Source: a virus. Taken from it: 64,000 nucleotides of DNA. A program made the position numbers and the translations under genes. This document shows, one piece after another, positions 1 through 41,255 of this stretch. The stretch is taken from the IMG/VR virus record IMGVR_UViG_3300008117_000445, positions 1 through 64,000 of that record. One strand, written 5' to 3'. Under the pieces are notes generated by a model. It was not told where the DNA came from, made no database searches, and saw only the letters and a list, made by a program, of their open reading frames with translations. Numbering within the stretch: position 1 is the first letter of the stretch; every line of letters starts with the position of its first letter.

Positions 1-13
1 ATTTAATCAAAAA

Positions 14-45
14 AATTTGACACTTTTTATAATATCAATATATTT
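14..45 (+). promoter_or_regulatory. Bacteroidetes-type sigmaA promoter (TTTG -33 / TAtaTTTA -7)
   Basis: TTTGacactttttataatatcaaTATATTTA; same architecture repeated at 410-445, 590-632, 735-776. Confidence 0.35.
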
Positions 46-76
46 ATATATTATAAATAATAAATCAAAAAAAACG

Positions 77-406
77 ATGAAAAAAATAGTTAGACTAACT
101 GAAAGAGATTTAACAAGAATTGTTAAACGAGTAATTAAAGAAAGTAACCTTAGCCCATATAGTGATGAAGATATGGCCGAAGACGAAAGACTTGACAGAA
201 TATCAAATGAATGGCGAGATTCATTTTATGATGCTTTTGATTTTGACTTTGAAGGTGCATTTCCAGAATACAATAAAGAATCAGATAAATTTGATGATAA
301 TTTAAATGATTTTATTGTTGATATGATGGGTGAAGACCCAGAACATGCTGTTAGAGTGTTACGTAAAGAACCTTGGTTTAGACCATATGTAAAATATCTT
401 AGATAA
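77..406 (+). CDS. hypothetical protein; N-terminus MKKIVRLTERDLTRIVKRVIKE resembles the shared leader family
   Basis: ORF 17..406 in track; internal Met at aa21 follows promoter; acidic C-terminal half. Confidence 0.45.
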   Translation: MKKIVRLTERDLTRIVKRVIKESNLSPYSDEDMAEDERLDRISNEWRDSFYDAFDFDFEGAFPEYNKESDKFDDNLNDFIVDMMGEDPEHAVRVLRKEPWFRPYVKYLR

Positions 407-409
407 AAA

Positions 410-445
410 ACTTGACACTTTTAAAATTATTAGTATATTTATAAA
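410..445 (+). promoter_or_regulatory. Bacteroidetes-type promoter (TTG ... TAtaTTTA)
   Basis: cTTGacacttttaaaattattagTATATTTAtaaaac, near-duplicate of the promoter at 14-45. Confidence 0.35.
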
Positions 446-589
446 ACAAAATAAAAAACCGCAAATGAAAAATTTACACATATCATTGATAGGAGGCGAT
501 TTAGCTGAGGCAACTTTCAAGGAGAGGGTGTAAGATTTTATACATATATAAAGGTTCTTTGACATATTGGTTTGAATTAAAAAAAATTA

Positions 590-632
590 AAAAAAGATTT
601 GGTGGATTAAAAAATTCTACATATCTTTGTAA
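590..632 (+). promoter_or_regulatory. strong Bacteroidetes-type promoter with A-rich UP-like element
   Basis: aaaaattaaaaaaagaTTTGgtggattaaaaaattctacaTAtcTTTGtaag; 20-nt spacer between TTTG and TAnnTTTG. Confidence 0.45.
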
Positions 633-734
633 GACAAAACGGTTTAGAAGTTAATTGCCTGATTATACAGTAATCCTCCCATCCACAGGCAGAAAGGAGG
701 TAAACAACTAAACCAAAAAAAAATTAAAAAAAGA

Positions 735-776
735 TTTGGTAGATTCAAAAATATTTTATAATTTTGTAGAACAAAC
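735..776 (+). promoter_or_regulatory. strong Bacteroidetes-type promoter with A-rich UP-like element (tandem copy)
   Basis: aaaattaaaaaaagaTTTGgtagattcaaaaatattttaTAatTTTGtagaac; direct repeat of the 590-632 unit. Confidence 0.45.
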
Positions 777-779
777 AAC

Positions 780-815
780 GGAGGTGGAGATGTTAGGGAT
801 GGTAACTCCACCTCC
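780..815 (+). other. perfect 10-bp stem-loop (GGAGGTGGAG ... CTCCACCTCC) immediately downstream of promoter
   Basis: inverted repeat read directly; candidate 5' structure of a short transcript / sRNA. Confidence 0.4.
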
Positions 816-839
816 GGAGATAGGGAAAGTTCATTGACA

Positions 840-1240
840 TATTAAAATATTGTGGTTGTAAGAAAGGGGAAACTCGTTAAGTTCATCAACCAGTTGACTC
901 AAGATGGTGAAACGAGAGTGTGGGTCAACTACTGAATCACAAAAAAACATTATAATGCGAGGGGGAGGTATAGTATCTCATCGGTCTCATAAGTCGACTT
1001 AACTTGATGCGATTTCAAGCCTACGCAACTAATAGGATGGATAGGTGGAAGGGCCTTTCCTGAAAGACGGCTTGCTAGGCCCGTGTCCATCCTTAAAAAA
1101 TTGATAGTGATCACCTCTACAGTGGTTGTCGACAAACTACGTAGGTTGAGGGTAGATAACACCCACTGCCGGTGCACCATAAAACTTAGGAAGGCAGTTA
1201 AGATTGGAAATAGGAGGGTACACCAACACTATCAACATTA
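840..1240 (+). ncRNA. ORF-free, GC-enriched, highly structured RNA segment of unknown family
   Basis: nested inverted repeats (AACTCGTT/AACGAGAG; AGTTGAC/GTCAACT), no credible ORF, lies between promoters and tRNAs. Confidence 0.3.
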
Positions 1241-1243
1241 TTT

Positions 1244-1317
1244 ACTGATGTAGCTCAATCGGTGAGTACGAGGTGTTCATACCTCAAGGTTATGGGTTCA
1301 AGTCCCTTCATCAGTAC
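1244..1317 (+). tRNA. tRNA, anticodon uncertain (loop reads UGUUCAUA: 8 nt as transcribed; GTT or TCA possible)
   Basis: acceptor ACTGATG/CATCAGT perfect 7 bp, D-arm GCTC..GAGT, T-arm ATGGG-TTCAAGT-CCCTT. Confidence 0.55.
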
Positions 1318-1319
1318 TG

Positions 1320-1900
1320 GGAGTGTACACAGTAGAGTTCAGCTTGAGAACAGATGTAACACACACTTTAAAGGGGGTTACAAGGTGTTAAGCCGTTTAT
1401 CAGATTTGGTCGTTAAAATCTGCCGTTGTTGATGAGATAGGTTTAACGTATAAACTTTCCTCCGTGATGTTAGTGGGTTTGATCACCCCTTTCACGTAAA
1501 TGTGATGAAACGAAACCCAAAGGAGTAGTCACAACTTGCGGGTATAGCATAAAATTAATGCTTCGCCATCTATCCGCTCAAAATGAAACAACAGAAGACG
1601 AATTAGCGTCGTTGAAAGGAACCTTGGCTCTCACAAGATCGCAACTTTTACTGAGAGTTGGAATGCCCCAAGGTACTCTGTTCAGATCCCTGCTCTGATG
1701 TGCACGTCAACAGGTTATGGGGAACAAACCATAAGTAAAAATCGTAGAAATGTTTCATTCTTATTAAATGGGAAAGAGATGCCCGAAGTTTTTAAGTTTC
1801 CTTCATAAAAACTTAACGAGAGTGGTACTAACGCGTGAAAATAGTACTCATTGGGAATCGGTTTGGAATATCCTCCTCTCCCCCAAGTATAAGGATTGAC
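1320..1900 (+). ncRNA. ORF-free structured RNA segment (unknown; not tRNA)
   Basis: many local hairpins (e.g. GCGGGTA...TATCCGC mini-helix at ~1541-1583), no ORF, GC-enriched. Confidence 0.25.
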
Positions 1901-1902
1901 TT

Positions 1903-1978
1903 TTTTAAAGGGGATGCCCAGCAGGTTTTTGAAAAAGAAAAACCGATGTAACTACTCACCAGTAATCTCAAGGTGGGG
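1903..1978 (+). ncRNA. conserved ~75-nt element, copy 1 (GGGGATGCCCrGCAGGTTTTT...AAAAACCGAT.T.ACTACTC...)
   Basis: near-identical second copy at 8647-8722; contains GGTTTTT/AAAAACC hairpin. Confidence 0.4.
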
Positions 1979-1984
1979 AAATTT

Positions 1985-2061
1985 GGGGGTGTAGCTCAAT
2001 TGGCTGAGCGGCTCGTTTGCAACGAGAGGGTTTTATGTGGGTTCAAGTCCCACCTCCTCCA
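1985..2061 (+). tRNA. tRNA-Ala (anticodon UGC)
   Basis: acceptor GGGGGTG/CTCCTCC with G3:U70 Ala identity pair; D-arm GCTC-AATTGGCT-GAGC; anticodon loop TTTGCAA; T-arm GTGGG-TTCAAGT-CCCAC. Confidence 0.75.
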
Positions 2062-2156
2062 CAAAGTTCGGAGTAATTAACCGAACCTAACAAGAAGATG
2101 GGTCATATAGCCTAAGGAAATTTGGTACCACTAATTCCTGTCTGTCTTCTTGATTA

Positions 2157-2233
2157 ACTACTTATGGTGTAAATTGGATTGCACATCGGTCACTAAGGCC
2201 GAAGGGTTGTAGGTTCAAGTCCTATGGGTAGTT
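2157..2233 (+). tRNA. tRNA-like gene; anticodon loop reads CACUAAG (CUA in anticodon position: amber-suppressor-like), lacks U33
   Basis: acceptor CTACTTA/TGGGTAG (2 G:U), anticodon stem TCGGT/GCCGA, T-arm GTAGG-TTCAAGT-CCTAT. Confidence 0.4.
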
Positions 2234-2240
2234 CAAATAG

Positions 2241-2357
2241 TCAGGTGGCGAGAGGAACACGCCCCGAAAGTGGAGAGTAACAATACCAACGGGACTCACG
2301 GAGATACTGCGTCCACTGCTGATGGTATCTATCACCGGTTTAAATCCGGTCCTGACT
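2241..2357 (+). tRNA. atypical long (117 nt) tRNA-like gene, acceptor AGTCAGG/CCTGACT
   Basis: perfect 7-bp acceptor, D-arm GGCG-AGAGGAACA-CGCC, T-arm CCGG-TTTAAAT-CCGG, ~35 extra nt between D- and T-arms. Confidence 0.3.
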
Positions 2358-2524
2358 ACATGAAGGTAAAAATATGAAACTTGGTAGTTCTTGTGGATTA
2401 TGATTACCCTGAATGTTTTTACAACTTTCATTCAGAAACCAAAAAATAAATGTTGTTGCAGGTTTAATAAAGGAATGGAGGAAAGTCTAACTAACGAGTA
2501 CTTCATAACCTACTGTATAAAATA

Positions 2525-2609
2525 GTCAGGTGGCGGAATTGGAAGACGCTATCCATTGGAAAGGCTGAGTTAAAAACGGCATTCAAGGTTCAAATCCTTG
2601 CCTGACTAC
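2525..2609 (+). tRNA. 85-nt tRNA-like gene (type-II-sized), acceptor AGTCAGG/CCTGACT; loop TTGGAAA (GGA, Ser-like) but anticodon stem does not pair as read
   Basis: perfect acceptor and T-arm CAAGG-TTCAAAT-CCTTG; shares 5' 15 nt and 3' end with the 2241-2357 gene. Confidence 0.35.
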
Positions 2610-2708
2610 AATCAGTTGCTTGATTCCTGGTAGTAGAGTAACAACCATTGGGATATTCGGGAAAATTCCGTGAATGGTGGTGTAAGATATAAAAGGGAAA
2701 CTTACAAT

Positions 2709-2781
2709 GGTGGAGTACCAAAGACAAAGGAAACGAGACATATGGGTGATCATATGTTGGCGCAAATCTCCACCTTTTTAA
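2709..2781 (+). terminator. stem-loop plus T-run (rho-independent terminator-like)
   Basis: GGTGGAG...CATATGGGTGATCATATG...CTCCACC followed by TTTTTAAATT. Confidence 0.4.
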
Positions 2782-2792
2782 ATTAAAAAATT

Positions 2793-2981
2793 ATGACACT
2801 AAAAGAACAAATTAATGCCGACTTTATGTCCGCATTTAAGAACAAAGAAATGGATAAGAAAAACTTCCTTGGAGTTGTTAAAGGTGAAATCCAAAATGAA
2901 GAAGGAAGGAGTGGGACCGTAACTGATGAGGTTGTTTTGTCCATCTTAAAGAAAATAAACCACCCATCGGCTAAAGACCAA
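2793..2981 (+). pseudogene. yqeY: 5' fragment of yqeY-like (GatB/YqeY-domain) gene, truncated by the IS insertion
   Basis: MTLKEQINADFMSAFKNKEMDKKNFLGVVKGEIQNEEGRSGTVTDEVVLSILKKI matches the YqeY N-terminal consensus (M.LKE.I..D.K.A.KAKDK.....L..A.KNEEI..G..LTDEEVL.VIKK); ORF then runs into IS sequence. Confidence 0.5.
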
Positions 2982-4385
2982 TGGGTTTTGTAGGATTAAT
3001 CCTAACTGGGTGGTTTATAACACCGCTTACATCCGTAAGAGATAAATCTCCATCAGATTTACTTTTATATTTTCTTAATATATTACAAGCACCATTCACA
3101 TCAGCATTAATTAATTTACCTTTTTTTGTTCTAAATAAACCTCGTTTAATGCGTTTACCTAAATATTCTTCGTGTTTCTCTATTTTTTCCAAATCCAACG
3201 ACGAACATTTTGATGTGTATGATTCTTCCTGTAGAACATAATTAATTCCGTAATATTCACATTTTGTTTCTAATTTTCTTTTTAAAATACCAAATGGTAC
3301 CGAAACAAAGTTCTGATTATTTACTTTACCGATATTAATTTCATTTTTCATACCTTTAAAATCACCTATAACTATTGTACCAATATCGTTATTAATACAA
3401 TATTTAACTATTTTATTCACACTCTGATTAAAGTAGTTATTTATATAATTTTTTCTATATTCACTTAATTTAATAAATTTTTTTGTGTTTTTATCTTTTA
3501 ATTTATTTTTTTCATATTCACTTTGTAATCTAGCTTTTTCTTTATTGTAATGATGGTTTACAGATTTAAGTGGTTTACCATCTATAATAAATGATGATTT
3601 ATTTTTAGTGTTATAAGATGTCAAAAGATTATCCAATCCACAATCAATACTTAATATATTATTATGGTTTAATTTCTTTACATTATCTTCAGCAACATAT
3701 GTTATAATTAACTCATACTCTTTACCACCATAAATGGGTTTAATCTGTAATTGTTGTAATTTATTGGTTTTAATATTTTTCGGTAGGTTAAATATGATAT
3801 CACGTTTTAATACATTATATTCTTCTCTAAATTGTTTACTAAGACCCATATATATTTTACCATTTTTAACCCTAGAACTTCTACCGGCAACTAATACTGA
3901 CCACCCAGAATCCTTATCTAAATAAGATGGGACATTAACCGGATTAGAGTACTTACCTTTTTGTTTTAATTTAAGTAATGAGAAAAATGATTTAAAATTT
4001 CTATCAACTAACCTATGTGTTTGTTGTGCGGAGTCTGTTATAAGTAATTTATAGTTCACATCATCTTTAATTAAATGATATTGATCAACATAATTTAAAT
4101 AAGAATTATTATTAAAGTAATACTGTCTAATGTTATAAACACAACTATTATATAAACGAGCAGAATGATATGATAACTTATCTATAATAAATTTTTCATC
4201 TTCATTCAATTTAAGTTTATATTTTTGTGTTAACATCATAATCTCCTATATATAAATATAGGGAAAGTGTGAAAAAACTTGTTTTATATAAAAAAAATAT
4301 TATATTTTAATCATTAACTAAAACATAAAGAAGGAAAAGTGATTCGTTTCCTCCCACAAACTAAAGATTTGTGGGTTTCCACGAA
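2960..4385 (-). mobile_element. IS200/IS605-family element, TnpB-only (IS1341-like), no tnpA
   Basis: tnpB ORF plus subterminal imperfect hairpins: CCCACAAActaaagaTTTGTGGG at 4349-4371 (left end) and CCACCCA...TGGGTGG near 2960-3015 (right end); flanked by the two yqeY fragments. Confidence 0.6.
2971..4239 (-). CDS. tnpB: TnpB/OrfB RNA-guided endonuclease (IS605 family)
   Basis: RuvC-I ILSIDCGLDNLLT, RuvC-III NADVNGACNILRK (DxDxNAAxNI consensus), C-terminal Cys/His zinc-finger region, N-terminal QKYKLKLNEDEK typical of OrfB. Confidence 0.75.
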   Translation of the reverse strand: MMLTQKYKLKLNEDEKFIIDKLSYHSARLYNSCVYNIRQYYFNNNSYLNYVDQYHLIKDDVNYKLLITDSAQQTHRLVDRNFKSFFSLLKLKQKGKYSNPVNVPSYLDKDSGWSVLVAGRSSRVKNGKIYMGLSKQFREEYNVLKRDIIFNLPKNIKTNKLQQLQIKPIYGGKEYELIITYVAEDNVKKLNHNNILSIDCGLDNLLTSYNTKNKSSFIIDGKPLKSVNHHYNKEKARLQSEYEKNKLKDKNTKKFIKLSEYRKNYINNYFNQSVNKIVKYCINNDIGTIVIGDFKGMKNEINIGKVNNQNFVSVPFGILKRKLETKCEYYGINYVLQEESYTSKCSSLDLEKIEKHEEYLGKRIKRGLFRTKKGKLINADVNGACNILRKYKSKSDGDLSLTDVSGVINHPVRINPTKPIGL

Positions 4386-4496
4386 TTAAAAATTATGAAT
4401 AACATTGGTCAAATAATGGGTGAGTTCAACAAACATTACAAAGGTTTGGTTGATAACAAACTGGTGAGTCAAATAACAAAGGAGATTTTAAATTAA
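4360..4496 (+). pseudogene. yqeY: 3' fragment of yqeY-like gene (resumes right after IS left end)
   Basis: FVGFHELKIMNNIGQIMGEFNKHYKGLVDNKLVSQITKEILN matches YqeY C-terminus (..SMKDMGKVMG.LM.K.KG.ADGKLVNQLVKEKL); central ~50 aa of YqeY missing. Confidence 0.45.
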
Positions 4497-8553: not shown

Positions 8554-8632
8554 AGTCAGTTAGCTCAACTGGTAGAGCAATCCCCAACCCTAAGAAGGGG
8601 ACGTGCCGTAGGTTCAAGTCCTTCACTGACTT
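8554..8632 (+). tRNA. tRNA; anticodon arm TCCCC-AACCCTAAGAA-GGGGA (11-nt loop, or 7-nt CCCUAAG closed by A.A pairs: CUA, amber-suppressor-like)
   Basis: acceptor AGTCAGT/ACTGACT perfect, D-arm GCTC-AACTGGTA-GAGC canonical, T-arm GTAGG-TTCAAGT-CCTTC. Confidence 0.5.
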
Positions 8633-40003: not shown

Positions 40004-40156
40004 ATGAAAAATTTATCTATTAGCTTAATTTACTTAGGGTTTTTCGCCCTTATCGGAACCGCAACTTACATTACTAATAATGGTAATTGTTTGTGGGCCT
40101 TGTTATTAACACCAAGTTTAACTTATAAACAAGAAGATGATGGAGAATCAGAATAG
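40004..40156 (+). CDS. small hydrophobic upstream ORF (50 aa) overlapping the start of the RNA ligase gene
   Basis: MKNLSISLIYLGFFALIGTATYITNNGNCLWALLLTPSLTYKQEDDGESE; directly after TATATTTGTAttATG. Confidence 0.3.
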   Translation: MKNLSISLIYLGFFALIGTATYITNNGNCLWALLLTPSLTYKQEDDGESE

Positions 40157-41255
40157 TGTTGCGTATGTAGGAAAAATAGGTTCAGTATCTGAAATACCAG
40201 GTGCTGACAATATAGAATTAGTAACTGTTGGTGGATGGAACGCCATAACCAAAAAAGGAGAATATAAGGTTGATGATTTAGTGGTTGTCGCAACTACTGA
40301 CGCTGTTATACCACAAAAATTGTCAGATGGTTTAGGTGTTACTAACTACCTTCGTAAAGGGCAAAGGGTTAGAACTGTAAAACTTCGTGGTGTTTATTCT
40401 GAATGTTTGTTAATACCGGTTACTTTCGTACCTGAAAAATATCGTTATGAAGGTTCCGATTGTATGGAATTACTTGAAATATTCAAGTTTGAACCACCAG
40501 TTAAAACAATAACTTTATCATCTGGTGGACGTAAAGTAAAGTACCACCAAAATCCAAACTTCCACATATACTACAAGTTTCCAAACCAAAAGAATGTTCC
40601 GGATATGTTTAATGAGGAAGATATGGTTGTTATAACCAGAAAATTACATGGAACAAATTCCAGATTTGGTATAATAAGAAAGAAAAAACTTACTATATGG
40701 GACCGAGTTAAAATGTTCTTTGGTGACAAATGGGCTGGATTTGATTACATAGTAGGTAGTCATAATGTTGAGAAAGGATCTGACTCACAAGGATTTTATG
40801 ATACCAATGTTTGGGAAGAAATATCCATAAAGTATAACATAAGAGAAAAATTGTGGCAACACGTAAAAGATACTTATGAATATCTTGAAACTGGATTCAT
40901 AATATATGGTGAAATATATGGTGCCGGTATACAGAAGAACTACGACTACTGTTTAACTGATATAAAGTTTGCTGGGTTTGATGTTGAGGTGGACGGTAAA
41001 TACGAAAGTTATCCGGCTGAAGTTACACACTTTGACGTAATGGATTTACCAAAGGTTGAACTTTTACATTGGGGTCATTGGGACAAAGAAAAACAAGATA
41101 GTTTTGTTTATGATAACTTTATAGAAGGAACCAAAGTTCCACACGAAGGTGTTATAGTAAAACACGAATCTGGTGATCGTAAAAAAATATCAAAATGTAT
41201 AAATCCTGGATATTTAATCGCAAGTGAAAAACATAATTATGGTGATTCACATTGA
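40137..41255 (+). CDS. RNA ligase, Rnl2 family
   Basis: nucleotidyltransferase motif I KLHGTN (T4 Rnl2 KIHGTN), downstream motifs consistent with the ligase fold. Confidence 0.6.
   Translation: MMENQNSVAYVGKIGSVSEIPGADNIELVTVGGWNAITKKGEYKVDDLVVVATTDAVIPQKLSDGLGVTNYLRKGQRVRTVKLRGVYSECLLIPVTFVPEKYRYEGSDCMELLEIFKFEPPVKTITLSSGGRKVKYHQNPNFHIYYKFPNQKNVPDMFNEEDMVVITRKLHGTNSRFGIIRKKKLTIWDRVKMFFGDKWAGFDYIVGSHNVEKGSDSQGFYDTNVWEEISIKYNIREKLWQHVKDTYEYLETGFIIYGEIYGAGIQKNYDYCLTDIKFAGFDVEVDGKYESYPAEVTHFDVMDLPKVELLHWGHWDKEKQDSFVYDNFIEGTKVPHEGVIVKHESGDRKKISKCINPGYLIASEKHNYGDSH

What the first reader, a model, noticed from the sequence alone, without database searches (positions are those of the whole stretch)
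410..2780. ~2.4-kb ORF-free island of promoters, structured RNA and tRNA genes
After the first gene there is no credible ORF for ~2.4 kb. Listed track ORFs such as 950..1180, 2222..2431 and 2583..2765 overlap tRNA/RNA structure and are spurious.

The island has four near-identical Bacteroidetes-type promoters. Two of them (590-632, 735-776) are tandem direct repeats with A-rich UP elements, each followed by a strong hairpin (CCTCC..GGAGG; the 10-bp GGAGGTGGAG/CTCCACCTCC).

Next comes ~1.1 kb of GC-enriched sequence dense in nested inverted repeats, at 840-1240 and 1320-1900. tRNA genes are interspersed.

This looks like a phage small-RNA / tRNA expression locus. The non-tRNA structured segments could be sRNAs, a ribozyme or intron, or processed spacers. 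I could not match them to tmRNA (no tag ORF), RNase P or 6S RNA by eye.
Basis: seen in the sequence. Interest (0 to 1): 0.65.

Follow-up and report, generated by a model that had tools for sequence, protein, structure and literature searches.

The report
Phage island of self-pairing small RNAs
This gene-free stretch of a freshwater phage genome is a conserved cluster of tRNA-like genes and at least eight structured RNAs, several of which carry loops that look built to pair with a second copy of the same RNA, as in the giant phage RNAs GOLLD and ROOL.

Summary
Window 535-2780 has no credible ORF under any stop-codon reassignment. A conserved 22-aa ORF sits at 466-534.

The region is GC-enriched and consists of discrete modules: A, B, B2, C, D, E, F, G, I, plus tRNA and tRNA-like genes. 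These modules recur, in shuffled order, in more than 200 IMG/VR phage contigs.

Covariation supports RNA structure on the + strand for A (a pseudoknot), B2, C, D, E, G and I. Module E is a ~155-nt RNA whose 3' third is Rfam freshwater-1. No other module matches Rfam.

Only tRNA-Ala is canonical. The "tRNA-CTA suppressor" is a tRNA-like element with no conserved anticodon.

C, E and G (more weakly D and F) have apical loops that are always palindromes and covary between palindromes, even at adjacent nucleotides. This is the published signature of intermolecular kissing loops in OLE and GOLLD.

Relatives carry GOLLD and tmRNA in the same island. The same phage has 11 more tRNAs just upstream of the window.

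Best reading: a promoter-driven RNA island, punctuated by tRNA-like elements, that yields self-associating small RNAs of unknown role. These are new members of a known kind.

The parts
412..439 (+). Sigma-70-like promoter TTGACA-N16-TATATT, a copy of 17-44. It drives the small ORF S.
   Evidence: Conserved with S in relatives.
466..534 (+). Small ORF S, 22 aa (MKNLHISLIGGDLAEATFKERV). It marks the usual start of the island in relatives.
   Evidence: One search shows the conserved reading frame in 6 relatives. One search finds 48 loci.
579..638 (+). Promoter repeat copy 1. An A-rich upstream tract is followed by TTTG (598-601), 20 nt, then TAtcTTTG (622-629).
   Evidence: It is 92% identical to a stretch of a 634-kb uncultured phage.
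641..713 (+). Small RNA downstream of promoter copy 1, closed by GGUUUAG/CUAAACC. A GCCUG/CAGGC x CCUCC/GGAGG pseudoknot is possible.
   Evidence: Only one distinct relative (L038), so the structure is untested.
716..775 (+). Promoter repeat copy 2 (TTTG 735-738 ... TAatTTTG 759-766).
779..815 (+). Hairpin RNA with an 11-bp stem, CGGAGGUGGAG/CUCCACCUCCG.
   Evidence: compensatory changes in L178 and L045.
826..861 (+). Conserved promoter-like region upstream of module A (TTGACA ... TGgtTGTAAG).
   Evidence: GTGGTTGTAAGAAA is nearly invariant.
862..945 (+). Module A, a pseudoknotted RNA. Helices: S1 873-877/912-916, hairpin 884-887/903-906, S2 893-901/921-929.
   Evidence: 89 viral contigs. The count of structure pairs on A6 gives 99.7% paired, 5 compensatory pairs and 0/500 shuffles.
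956..1028 (+). Module B, a tRNA-Met/Ile2-like cloverleaf. The anticodon loop CUCAUAA is conserved. The D-loop lacks GG and the T-loop is UGCGAUU.
   Evidence: ARAGORN and Rfam do not call it.
1034..1093 (+). Module B2, two nested covarying stems (AGGAUGGA/UCCAUCCU and GGGCCU/AGGCCC).
   Evidence: 24 unique homologues.
1102..1234 (+). Module C, a four-helix RNA. Helices: P1 1102-1109/1227-1234, P3 1166-1169/1194-1197, P4 1205-1209/1221-1225. It has an invariant 7-nt loop GUCGACA (1128-1134) and a self-complementary element at 1170-1179.
   Evidence: At least 120 viral contigs. A3 gives 96.7% paired against 84.6% shuffled, with 20/26 pairs covarying. Palindromes.
1244..1317 (+). tRNA (Rfam 47 bits), homologous to the tRNA-Ile(UAU) of relatives. 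Here the anticodon arm is remodelled and has a 6-nt loop.
1320..1535 (+). Module D, a multi-helix RNA. Helices include 1342-1347/1388-1393 and 1356-1360/1377-1381. A candidate pseudoknot is 1321-1326/1363-1368. A hairpin at 1475-1478/1485-1488 has the loop UUGAUC.
   Evidence: 24 viral contigs. Helices and covariation. The loop reads GAUC in 27, GGCC in 5 and GACC in 1.
1540..1583 (+). Truncated remnant of tRNA-Gly(UCC): an acceptor-like stem GCGGGUA/UAUCCGC plus one hairpin.
   Evidence: relatives have a full tRNA-Gly at this position.
1590..1745 (+). Module E, a ~155-nt RNA. Helices: P1 1590-1594/1678-1682, P2 1597-1601/1609-1613, P3 1622-1627/1668-1673, then the two hairpins of Rfam freshwater-1 (1679-1740). 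The self-complementary 10-mer AUGUGCACGU is at 1697-1706.
   Evidence: A4 gives 98.6% paired against 79.4% shuffled, with 22/33 pairs covarying.
1766..1982 (+). Module F, a conserved ~215-nt RNA whose structure is only partly resolved. A hairpin at 1823-1850 has the loop ACGCGU.
   Evidence: 40 loci..
1985..2062 (+). tRNA-Ala (UGC), the only canonical tRNA in the island.
   Evidence: 52.7 bits.
2063..2156 (+). Module G: a hairpin at 2066-2087, then a long hairpin at 2092-2153 whose apical loop carries the palindrome GGUACC (2125-2130).
   Evidence: A5 gives 95.7% paired, and loop pairs 67-70 and 68-69 are 100% paired with 3-4 pair types each. In 29 instances there are 5 different hexamers, all palindromes.
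2157..2234 (+). tRNA-like element, always fused to G. The acceptor, D and T arms are invariant. The 'anticodon' loop is 4-9 nt and not conserved. ARAGORN's 'tRNA-Pyl CTA' call is spurious.
   Evidence: (23.6 bits, below GA).
2239..2358 (+). tRNA-like scaffold. It shares acceptor, D and T arms with 2524-2609. A ~77-nt two-hairpin insert replaces the anticodon region.
   Evidence: 24.4 bits; repeats D3 and D9. One homologue, L045.
2360..2520 (+). AT-rich spacer, poorly conserved. Role unknown.
   Evidence: One weak homologue, L097.
2524..2609 (+). tRNA-Leu-like scaffold with an 8-nt 'anticodon' loop. The central region of this family is hypervariable.
   Evidence: 36.3 bits; 26 unique homologues.
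2610..2776 (+). Module I, a multi-hairpin RNA. Helices: 2616-2620/2637-2641, 2645-2649/2673-2677, 2682-2686/2701-2705, 2709-2715/2768-2774, 2739-2745/2750-2756.
   Evidence: 24 loci. Searches, with 14 covarying pairs in 17 sequences.

Best explanation
Window ~410-2780 is the distal part of a phage tRNA/non-coding-RNA island at least 8 kb long. Repeated phage promoters drive + strand transcripts. These transcripts are strings of tRNA or tRNA-like elements alternating with compact structured RNAs (A, B2, C, D, E, F, G, I; 60-220 nt).

The tRNA-like elements abut the modules within 0-10 nt. Most likely they serve as punctuation: host RNase P and RNase Z cut at them and release the modules as stable small RNAs.

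Several released RNAs (C, E and G; probably D and F) then pair with a second copy of themselves through palindromic apical loops. This would give homodimers or larger RNA-only assemblies, as shown for OLE, GOLLD and ROOL.

Shown here:
- The region is non-coding.
- The modules are conserved and shuffled among phages.
- RNA structure covaries on the + strand.
- Loop palindromes covary.
- GOLLD co-occurs in relatives' islands.

Inferred:
- Transcription from these promoters.
- Processing at the tRNA-like elements.
- Actual multimerisation.

The biological role is unknown. The most plausible area is tRNA or translation biology, or countering host defence during infection.
For: **Non-coding.**

**Phage context.**

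**Conservation and shuffling of modules.**

**Covariation, with shuffle and slide controls.**
- E: 98.6% paired against 79.4% shuffled; 22/33 pairs covary.
- C: 96.7% against 84.6%; 20/26 pairs.
- G.
- A pseudoknot: 99.7% paired.
- D, I and B2.

**Strand.** Invariant G-U pairs (for example E column 16-34, GU in 38/40), plus the orientation of the tRNAs and promoters.

**Promoters.** TTTG-N17-21-TAnnTTTG occurs 15 times in the window against 5.8+-2.5 expected, mostly in front of + strand ORFs. Copies of the repeat precede E in L010 and GOLLD in L185.

**Punctuation.** Gaps between modules and tRNA(-like) elements are 0-10 nt. In most loci E starts ~10 nt after a tRNA 3' end.

**Palindromic loops.**
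- E hexamers: GUGCAC, UGGCCA, AGCGCU, AUGCAU. The adjacent-nucleotide pair is 100% paired (GC:39, CG:1), and the next pair reads UA:30, GC:10.
- G hexamers: GGUACC 11, GUCGAC 9, GGAUCC 5, GCUAGC 2, GACGUC 2; all 29 are palindromes. The adjacent pair reads CG:11, UA:11, AU:4.
- C centre: GGCC, UGCA, GAUC, GCGC. Its GUCGAC loop is invariant in 70/70.
- Kretsch et al. use the same signature as evidence for intermolecular kissing loops in OLE L9.3 and GOLLD L21a (bioRxiv 10.1101/2024.12.08.627333, section 6).

**GOLLD and tmRNA.** Both occur in relatives' islands.

**Upstream tRNAs.** The same phage has 11 canonical tRNAs immediately upstream of the window.
Against: - No expression or processing data exist for this phage.
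- Multimerisation is inferred from sequence alone.
- Seven of 110 C instances have an 11-nt element with an odd central base. One D and one F instance break the palindrome.
- RNAcofold predicts dimers for every module, so it does not discriminate.
- The window's copy of E scores 70.3 bits, 1.7 below Rfam's gathering score.
- In this phage two tRNAs are damaged: T1 has a 6-nt anticodon loop and tRNA-Gly is truncated. This could mean local decay.
- Modules F, 641-713 and 2360-2520 have little or no structural support.
Confidence: 0.6

Rival explanations
1. The modules are cis-acting only. They would be spacers that fold to help transcription, processing or stability of the neighbouring tRNAs, and would have no function once released.
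For: The modules abut tRNA(-like) elements. They are always found inside tRNA arrays.
Against: - The same module sits next to different tRNAs in different phages. E follows Gly, Leu, Met or Glu.
- Some modules have their own promoter and no adjacent tRNA, such as A.
- Spacers would not need 130-220 nt of pseudoknotted, deeply conserved structure.
- Spacers would not need palindromic loops that covary.
Confidence: 0.15
2. The island is mainly a set of tRNA mimics. These decoys or nuclease-resistant variants would soak up or evade host anticodon nucleases and other tRNA-targeting defences, and the other modules would be accessories.
For: - Four to five elements keep tRNA acceptor, D and T arms but have altered anticodon regions.
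- B keeps a strictly conserved CAU anticodon loop while its elbow is remodelled.
- The phage encodes an RNA ligase of the tRNA-repair type.
- From my own knowledge, phage T5 uses a variant tRNA against the PARIS defence system.
Against: - The G-linked tRNA-like element and the 2524-2609 family have no conserved anticodon loop (4-9 nt, hypervariable). That is the opposite of what an anticodon-nuclease decoy needs.
- Modules A, C, D, E, F and I have no tRNA-like features.
Confidence: 0.12
3. The island is a decaying tRNA array. The sequences between tRNAs would be junk or pseudogenes that look conserved only because the phages are closely related.
For: In this phage one tRNA is truncated and another has a 6-nt anticodon loop. 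The island has far fewer intact tRNAs than relatives, which carry 19-26.
Against: - The modules are retained at 60-85% identity across more than 100 contigs, in rearranged order.
- Changes are compensatory far beyond the shuffled and slid controls.
- The same phage keeps 11 intact tRNAs upstream.
Confidence: 0.04
4. The palindromes and inverted repeats act at the DNA level. They would be binding sites for dimeric proteins, restriction or methylation decoys, or an origin or packaging site.
For: The loop palindromes are also classic restriction-site sequences, such as GTCGAC, GGTACC, GGATCC and GTGCAC.
Against: - The helices contain conserved G-U pairs, which would be A-C mismatches on the other strand.
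- The palindromes always sit at the apex of covarying RNA stems.
- A protein site would be conserved, not swapped among five unrelated palindromes.
Confidence: 0.04
5. The region encodes proteins after all, either as short ORFs or through a reassigned stop codon read by the 'CTA' tRNA.
For: ARAGORN calls a CTA-anticodon tRNA. Short open frames exist. One conserved 22-aa ORF is real.
Against: - Recoding any stop codon opens no long ORF.
- The CTA loop is not conserved in relatives.
- There is no codon periodicity, and indels are not multiples of 3.
- The rest of the window is densely coding with the standard code.
Confidence: 0.02

Closest known systems
GOLLD RNA (Rfam RF02032)
   Same: It is phage-encoded, lies in or beside tRNA islands and is highly structured. 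Palindromic loops that covary between palindromes mark its intermolecular kissing contacts. GOLLD is physically present in the homologous islands of at least 20 related contigs.
   Different: GOLLD is 800 nt or longer and forms a 14-mer cage. The modules here are 60-220 nt and unrelated to it in sequence and fold. No GOLLD is found in this 64-kb window. Assembly of the modules has not been shown.
ROOL RNA
   Same: It is a phage or prophage RNA found near tRNA islands. It has no known protein partner and multimerises through kissing loops.
   Different: There is no Rfam match here. It belongs to a different size class and fold.
freshwater-1 RNA motif (Rfam RF02979; Weinberg et al. 2017)
   Same: Window 1679-1740 aligns end to end with the 62-nt model at E 1.3e-15. 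Orthologues in relatives score 82-88 bits, above the gathering score.
   Different: - The Rfam motif is only the 3' third of a ~155-nt RNA.
- Its 'unpaired' 5' end (CUGU) pairs with an upstream ACAG, closing a junction with two further covarying helices.
- Its 'UGCA tetraloop' is a covarying palindrome.
- The window copy scores 70.3, against a gathering score of 72.
Phage T4 tRNA cluster with stable RNAs C and D (species 1 and 2) - from my own knowledge
   Same: Small stable RNAs of unknown function are embedded in a phage tRNA gene cluster. They are co-transcribed and matured by the host tRNA-processing enzymes.
   Different: No sequence similarity was tested or is expected. T4 has two such RNAs, whereas this island has eight or more. 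Self-pairing loops have not been described for the T4 RNAs.
tRNA-like elements used as processing signals (MALAT1-mascRNA; murine gammaherpesvirus 68 tRNA-miRNA units) - from my own knowledge
   Same: In both cases a tRNA-like fold without decoding function is fused to another RNA and recruits RNase P or RNase Z to define its end. This matches the G + tRNA-like unit (2063-2234) and the scaffolds at 2239-2358 and 2524-2609.
   Different: Those examples are eukaryotic or from eukaryotic viruses. Processing here is inferred, not shown.
HIV-1 dimerisation initiation site - from my own knowledge
   Same: A 6-nt palindrome (GUGCAC or GCGCGC) in an apical loop mediates a symmetric kissing dimer. Natural variants switch between palindromes.
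   Different: It is a retroviral genome element, unrelated in context.

Membership tests
freshwater-1 (RF02979) | Covariance-model score at or above Rfam's gathering score (72 bits) | tested here: not met
   The window copy scores 70.3 bits at E 1.3e-15, with a full-length match to model positions 1-62. It was absent from the gathering-threshold scan.
freshwater-1 (RF02979) | Both hairpins and the invariant core CCCUGCUCUG..CAACAGG are present, and the copy is orthologous to members above threshold | tested here: met
   The alignment shows both features. Orthologues in L009, L023, L012, L019, L010 and L020 score 82-88 bits and align with the window copy over ~155 nt.
GOLLD (RF02032) | Match to the conserved 3' domain model | tested here: not met
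   There is no hit in the window at gathering score or at E<=10 in 350-3050. nhmmer with two GOLLD copies hits only the promoter repeats.
ROOL, tmRNA, RNase P RNA, 6S RNA, group I/II introns, known self-cleaving ribozymes, riboswitches | Match to the Rfam covariance model | tested here: not met
   cmscan of 350-3050 at E<=10 returned only freshwater-1, tRNA and two noise hits.
Canonical decoding tRNA | Cloverleaf with a 7-nt anticodon loop and an anticodon conserved among orthologues | tested here: met
   Met only for 1985-2062, tRNA-Ala UGC, at 52.7 bits.
Canonical decoding tRNA (amber suppressor, 2157-2234) | Conserved CUA anticodon in a 7-nt loop with U33 | tested here: not met
   - The loop is CACUAAG, with A at position 33.
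- The 13 orthologues have loops of 4-9 nt with no common sequence.
- Rfam scores it 23.6 bits, below the gathering score of 29.
Canonical decoding tRNA (1244-1317; 2524-2609; 2239-2358; 956-1028) | 7-nt anticodon loop and canonical D- and T-loops | tested here: not met
   - 1244-1317 has a 6-nt loop.
- 2524-2609 has an 8-nt loop and a hypervariable middle across 26 homologues.
- 2239-2358 has a 77-nt insert.
- 956-1028 has no GG in the D-loop and the T-loop UGCGAUU, but its CAU loop is conserved.
RNAs with symmetric intermolecular kissing loops (OLE L9.3, GOLLD L21a type) | An apical-loop palindrome that covaries between palindromes, including at adjacent nucleotides | tested here: met
   Met for E, G and C. 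Weaker for D and F. The criterion follows Kretsch et al..
RNAs with symmetric intermolecular kissing loops | Physical homodimer or multimer formation | not testable with these tools
   This needs native PAGE, SEC-MALS or cryo-EM. RNAcofold predicts dimers for every module, so it is uninformative.
tRNA-cluster stable RNAs (T4 RNA C/D type) | Co-transcription with the tRNAs and maturation by RNase P and 3' processing enzymes | not testable with these tools
   Only the geometry is shown: gaps of 0-10 nt between modules and tRNA(-like) elements.

The most novel reading that the evidence does not exclude
Freshwater Bacteroidota phages carry, next to GOLLD, a toolkit of at least five previously undescribed small RNA families (C, D, E/extended freshwater-1, F, G; 95-220 nt). 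Each would assemble into symmetric RNA-only homodimers or larger complexes through programmable palindromic kissing loops. tRNA-like elements would act as the built-in processing and expression scaffold. On this reading, RNA self-assembly is a general property of phage tRNA-island RNAs and not a peculiarity of the giant ones.
Probability: 0.4. Interest if true: 0.8.

Novelty: new member of a known kind. Interest (0 to 1): 0.66.

Why it matters
1. **Missing context for an orphan Rfam motif.** freshwater-1 becomes the 3' part of a ~155-nt RNA that lives in phage tRNA arrays.
2. **New RNA families.** At least seven covariation-supported families (A, B2, C, D, F, G, I) are absent from Rfam. They share islands with GOLLD, whose function is a long-standing open question.
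3. **Small, tractable test systems.** Three of them carry the same sequence signature that marks intermolecular contacts in OLE and GOLLD. At 95-155 nt they can be used to test why phage tRNA-island RNAs multimerise.
4. **An annotation trap.** tRNA finders call a 'CTA suppressor' and 4-base anticodons here. An annotator could wrongly infer stop-codon recoding or frameshift suppression. The elements are tRNA-like scaffolds without a conserved anticodon.

Tried and rejected
- **Rfam at E<=10.** Apart from freshwater-1 and tRNA, it found nothing: no tmRNA, RNase P, 6S, intron, ribozyme or riboswitch.
- **Alternative genetic codes.** No long ORF appears.
- **INPHARED blastn of the island.** It returned only a tRNA-Ala hit and a promoter hit.
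- **Literature.** No paper in the library mentions freshwater-1. The main text of Weinberg 2017 does not discuss it and its supplements are not held. The Fremin 2023 csRNA catalogue may include some modules, but this could not be checked.
- **GTDB genome scan with the C pattern.** It gave 57 hits, about what chance predicts for 17 specified bases. Only 2 are real C modules, both on tiny MAG contigs. There is therefore no evidence for a bacterial chromosomal home, and only a weak pointer to a Bacteroidota host.
- **Modules as pieces of GOLLD.** Rejected: no similarity.
- **RNAcofold dimer energies.** Every module 'dimerises', so the result does not discriminate.
- **mafft-qinsi structural alignment.** Not available.
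- **Structures of F and of the 3' half of D.** These stay poorly resolved with MAFFT plus RNAalifold.
- **Longest-ORF test on short modules.** Uninformative. Periodicity and indel tests replaced it.
- **A resemblance seen by eye.** 'GGAGGAAAGUC' at 2477-2487 looks like RNase P CR-I. That segment is unconserved and Rfam finds nothing, so I dismissed it.
- **Matching or orthogonal palindromes within one phage.** No consistent rule. C and E share GUGCAC in the window but not in L009; G equals C's GUCGAC in L038.

Full report
**Observation**

Between the stop of the first gene (406) and the next gene (2793), the standard code gives no ORF longer than 76 aa. Reassigning TAG, TGA or TAA opens nothing long. 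GC rises to 0.40-0.465 over ~800-2300, against 0.24-0.31 in the flanks.

- A 22-aa ORF (466-534, MKNLHI...) with a TTGACA-N16-TATATT promoter is conserved in 48 related loci.
- The promoters are of two types, not four near-identical copies. There are two TTTG-N19-TAnnTTTG copies at 598-629 and 735-766 (83% identical repeat). There are two TTGACA-type sites at 412-439 and ~834-860.
- Only tRNA-Ala (1985-2062) is a canonical tRNA.
- The structured sequence is a chain of separate modules that continues to 2776.

**What the window is**

It is a phage. Genes include a tail fibre with YadA-head repeats, an SprB-repeat protein, an amidase endolysin, an RNA ligase and a TnpB insertion. The promoter type TTTG-N17-21-TAnnTTTG occurs 15 times, against 5.8+-2.5 expected by chance, mostly just upstream of + strand ORFs. 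The tail fibre resembles those of Flavobacterium phages. A Bacteroidota host is therefore likely, but this is an inference.

**Rfam**

At gathering thresholds only tRNAs are found. A permissive scan of 350-3050 adds three things:
- freshwater-1 (RF02979) at 1679-1740, 70.3 bits against a gathering score of 72, E 1.3e-15;
- a tRNA-like match with a 77-nt insertion at 2239-2358;
- the weak 'tRNA' at 2158-2232.

No tmRNA, RNase P, 6S, intron, ribozyme or riboswitch model matches, even at E<=10.

**Relatives and modularity**

Scanning IMG/VR with short conserved patterns gave:

| Pattern | Contigs |
|---|---|
| freshwater-1 core | 39 |
| freshwater-1 core, loop left free | 53 |
| module D | 24 |
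| module A | 89 |
| tRNA-like element after G | 19 |

Comparing the island with these loci shows discrete blocks: S, A, B+B2, C, T1, D, E, F, G+tRNA-like, T6 and I. Each is conserved at 60-90% identity, but their order and combination differ. The usual start is S-promoters-A-B, and later blocks are shuffled.

One contig (L311) is the same phage, 99.6-100% identical over window 1-1377. It shows 11 canonical tRNAs in the 6 kb upstream of the window start. The finding is therefore the distal end of a tRNA/ncRNA region at least 8 kb long.

Related islands hold up to 26 tRNAs, a tmRNA and GOLLD RNA at 317-325 bits. nhmmer finds GOLLD in at least 20 of the fetched loci, but not in this window.

A scan of GTDB genomes with the C pattern gave mostly chance hits. 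Only two tiny MAG contigs hold a real C module, so the modules look phage-restricted.

**RNA structure**

| Module | Sequences | Result |
|---|---|---|
| E | 40 | 33 pairs, 98.6% of cells paired vs 79.4% shuffled and 29-43% when partners are slid; 22 pairs compensatory |
| C | 70 | 96.7% vs 84.6% shuffled; 20/26 pairs compensatory |
| G | 26 | 95.7% vs 87.9% shuffled |
| A | 34 | double pseudoknot, 99.7% paired, 5 compensatory pairs, 0/500 shuffles |

D, I and B2 have several helices each with compensatory changes. F is conserved in 40 loci but its fold is only partly resolved.

Invariant G-U pairs, together with the orientation of the tRNAs and promoters, put the RNAs on the + strand. Modules C and E show no codon periodicity, and their indels are mostly not multiples of three.

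**Module E and freshwater-1**

The Rfam motif covers only the last 62 nt. Its 'unpaired' 5' end (CUGU, 1678-1681) pairs with ACAG at 1591-1594. That pairing closes a junction holding two further covarying helices, 1597-1601/1609-1613 and 1622-1627/1668-1673. In most loci the RNA begins ~10 nt after the 3' end of a tRNA.

**tRNAs and tRNA-like elements**

- 2157-2234, called tRNA-Pyl/CTA by ARAGORN, has invariant acceptor, D and T arms. Its 'anticodon' loop is 4-9 nt with no common sequence in 13 orthologues. It is always fused to module G. It is not a suppressor.
- 2524-2609 belongs to a family of 26 unique sequences with tRNA-Leu-like acceptor, D and T arms and a hypervariable middle.
- 2239-2358 shares those arms and carries a 77-nt two-hairpin insert.
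- 956-1028 is a cloverleaf with a conserved CAU anticodon loop but non-canonical D- and T-loops.
- 1244-1317 is the orthologue of tRNA-Ile(UAU) with a remodelled 6-nt anticodon loop.
- 1540-1583 is a truncated tRNA-Gly.

Every non-tRNA module from C onwards touches one of these elements within 0-10 nt.

**Palindromic loops**

- *E.* The 10 nt between CUCUG and CAACAGG are self-complementary in all 41 distinct instances. Central hexamers are GUGCAC, UGGCCA, AGCGCU and AUGCAU. The two innermost pairs, including the adjacent-nucleotide pair, are 100% complementary (UA:30/GC:10 and GC:39/CG:1).
- *G.* The apical-loop hexamer is GGUACC (11), GUCGAC (9), GGAUCC (5), GCUAGC (2) or GACGUC (2) in 29 instances, some from metagenome contigs. 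All are palindromes. The adjacent-nucleotide pair reads CG:11, UA:11, AU:4.
- *C.* A 10-nt element switches among CGAGGCCUCG, CGGUGCACCG, CAGUGCACUG, CUGGGCCCAG, CGAUGCAUCG, CUGGCGCCAG and CUGGAUCCAG. A 7-nt loop GUCGACA is invariant in 70/70.
- *D and F.* D has GAUC (27), GGCC (5) and one exception. F has mostly ACGU, CGCG, GGCC or GCGC, with exceptions.

Adjacent nucleotides cannot pair within one strand. Kretsch et al. used exactly this kind of covariation (GGCC to GAUC or AGCU; GC to CG) as evolutionary evidence for the intermolecular kissing loops they saw by cryo-EM in OLE and GOLLD. By that criterion C, E and G are predicted to self-associate. This is an inference from sequence. RNAcofold is uninformative, because every hairpin can domain-swap.

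**Mechanism proposed**

- *Shown:* the island is non-coding, conserved, modular, structured on the + strand, rich in tRNA-like elements, and carries covarying loop palindromes. GOLLD shares the island in relatives.
- *Inferred:* phage promoters drive one or several precursors. Host RNase P and RNase Z cut at the tRNA and tRNA-like elements and release the modules, as in the T4 tRNA cluster with RNAs C and D and in tRNA-like processing signals (my own knowledge). The released RNAs C, E, G and probably D and F form symmetric dimers or larger assemblies.
- *Unknown:* their role. The company they keep (tRNAs, tmRNA, GOLLD, an RNA ligase) points to translation or tRNA biology, or to defence evasion.

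**Rivals**

- Cis-only spacers. The modules change tRNA neighbours and some have their own promoters.
- tRNA decoys. The anticodon regions are the least conserved parts.
- A decaying array. Covariation and deep conservation argue against it.
- DNA-level palindromes. G-U pairs and swapping among unrelated palindromes argue against it.
- Hidden coding. Refuted.

**Comparison and novelty**

The kind is known: structured RNAs of unknown function in phage tRNA islands (GOLLD, ROOL, T4 RNAs C/D). One piece, freshwater-1, is already in Rfam. New here:
- the full extent and context of freshwater-1;
- seven further families absent from Rfam, some of which may be unnamed entries in the Fremin 2023 catalogue;
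- tRNA-like scaffolds with hypervariable cores;
- the kissing-loop signature in small RNAs.

I file it as new members of a known kind, with moderately high interest.

Noticed in passing
window 2793-4496: A TnpB/IS605-OrfB gene (2971-4239, - strand; Pfam OrfB_IS605 + Cas12f1-like TNB) interrupts a yqeY/GatB-like phage gene. The N-terminal part is at 2793-2993 and the C-terminal part at 4371-4496. A terminator-like hairpin at 2962-2986(-) lies where the element's guide RNA would be expected.
   Followed up: partly
window 8554-8632 (+): Rfam finds a further tRNA here (43.6 bits), but ARAGORN does not. It lies 6 kb beyond the island.
   Followed up: no
window 40137-41255 (+): An RNA ligase (PHA02142 OB-fold + RNA_ligase domains), the type used by phages to repair cleaved tRNAs, in the same genome as the tRNA-like island.
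   Followed up: no
L311 1-9925 (same phage, upstream of window position 1): Eleven canonical tRNAs (Thr, Ser, Gln, Pro, Tyr, Ile, His, Trp, Phe, Cys, Leu), interspersed with small ORFs, lie just upstream of the window. L311 also has ~89 extra nt at window position ~550.
   Followed up: partly
L009 11836-12243 and 13561-13958; L185 2193-2606: GOLLD RNA (317-325 bits) and a tmRNA lie in the homologous islands of related phages. nhmmer finds GOLLD in at least 20 of the fetched loci, preceded by the same promoter repeat.
   Followed up: partly
L010 6193-6268, L023 3232-3307, L038 6462-6540: ARAGORN calls tRNAs with 4-base 'anticodons' (ttaa, gtat) in relatives. Like window 2524-2609 (tgga), these are probably tRNA-like scaffolds and not quadruplet decoders.
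   Followed up: partly
window 579-639 vs LR745206.1 420029-420088: The promoter repeat is 92% identical to a stretch of a 634-kb uncultured 'huge phage' genome. The promoter type is therefore shared with very large phages.
   Followed up: no
window 2239-2358: The two hairpins that replace the anticodon arm carry complementary loop sequences (GUGGA / UCCAC). These could form an intramolecular kissing contact. Only one homologue (L045) exists, so this is untested.
   Followed up: no
window 1171-1178 and 1699-1706: In this phage modules C and E carry the same palindrome, GUGCAC, so a C-E hetero-contact is possible. The match is not kept in other phages such as L009.
   Followed up: partly
window 466-534: The conserved micro-ORF (22-24 aa, hydrophobic N-terminus MKNLHI) marks the start of the island in 48 related loci. 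Its function is unknown.
   Followed up: partly
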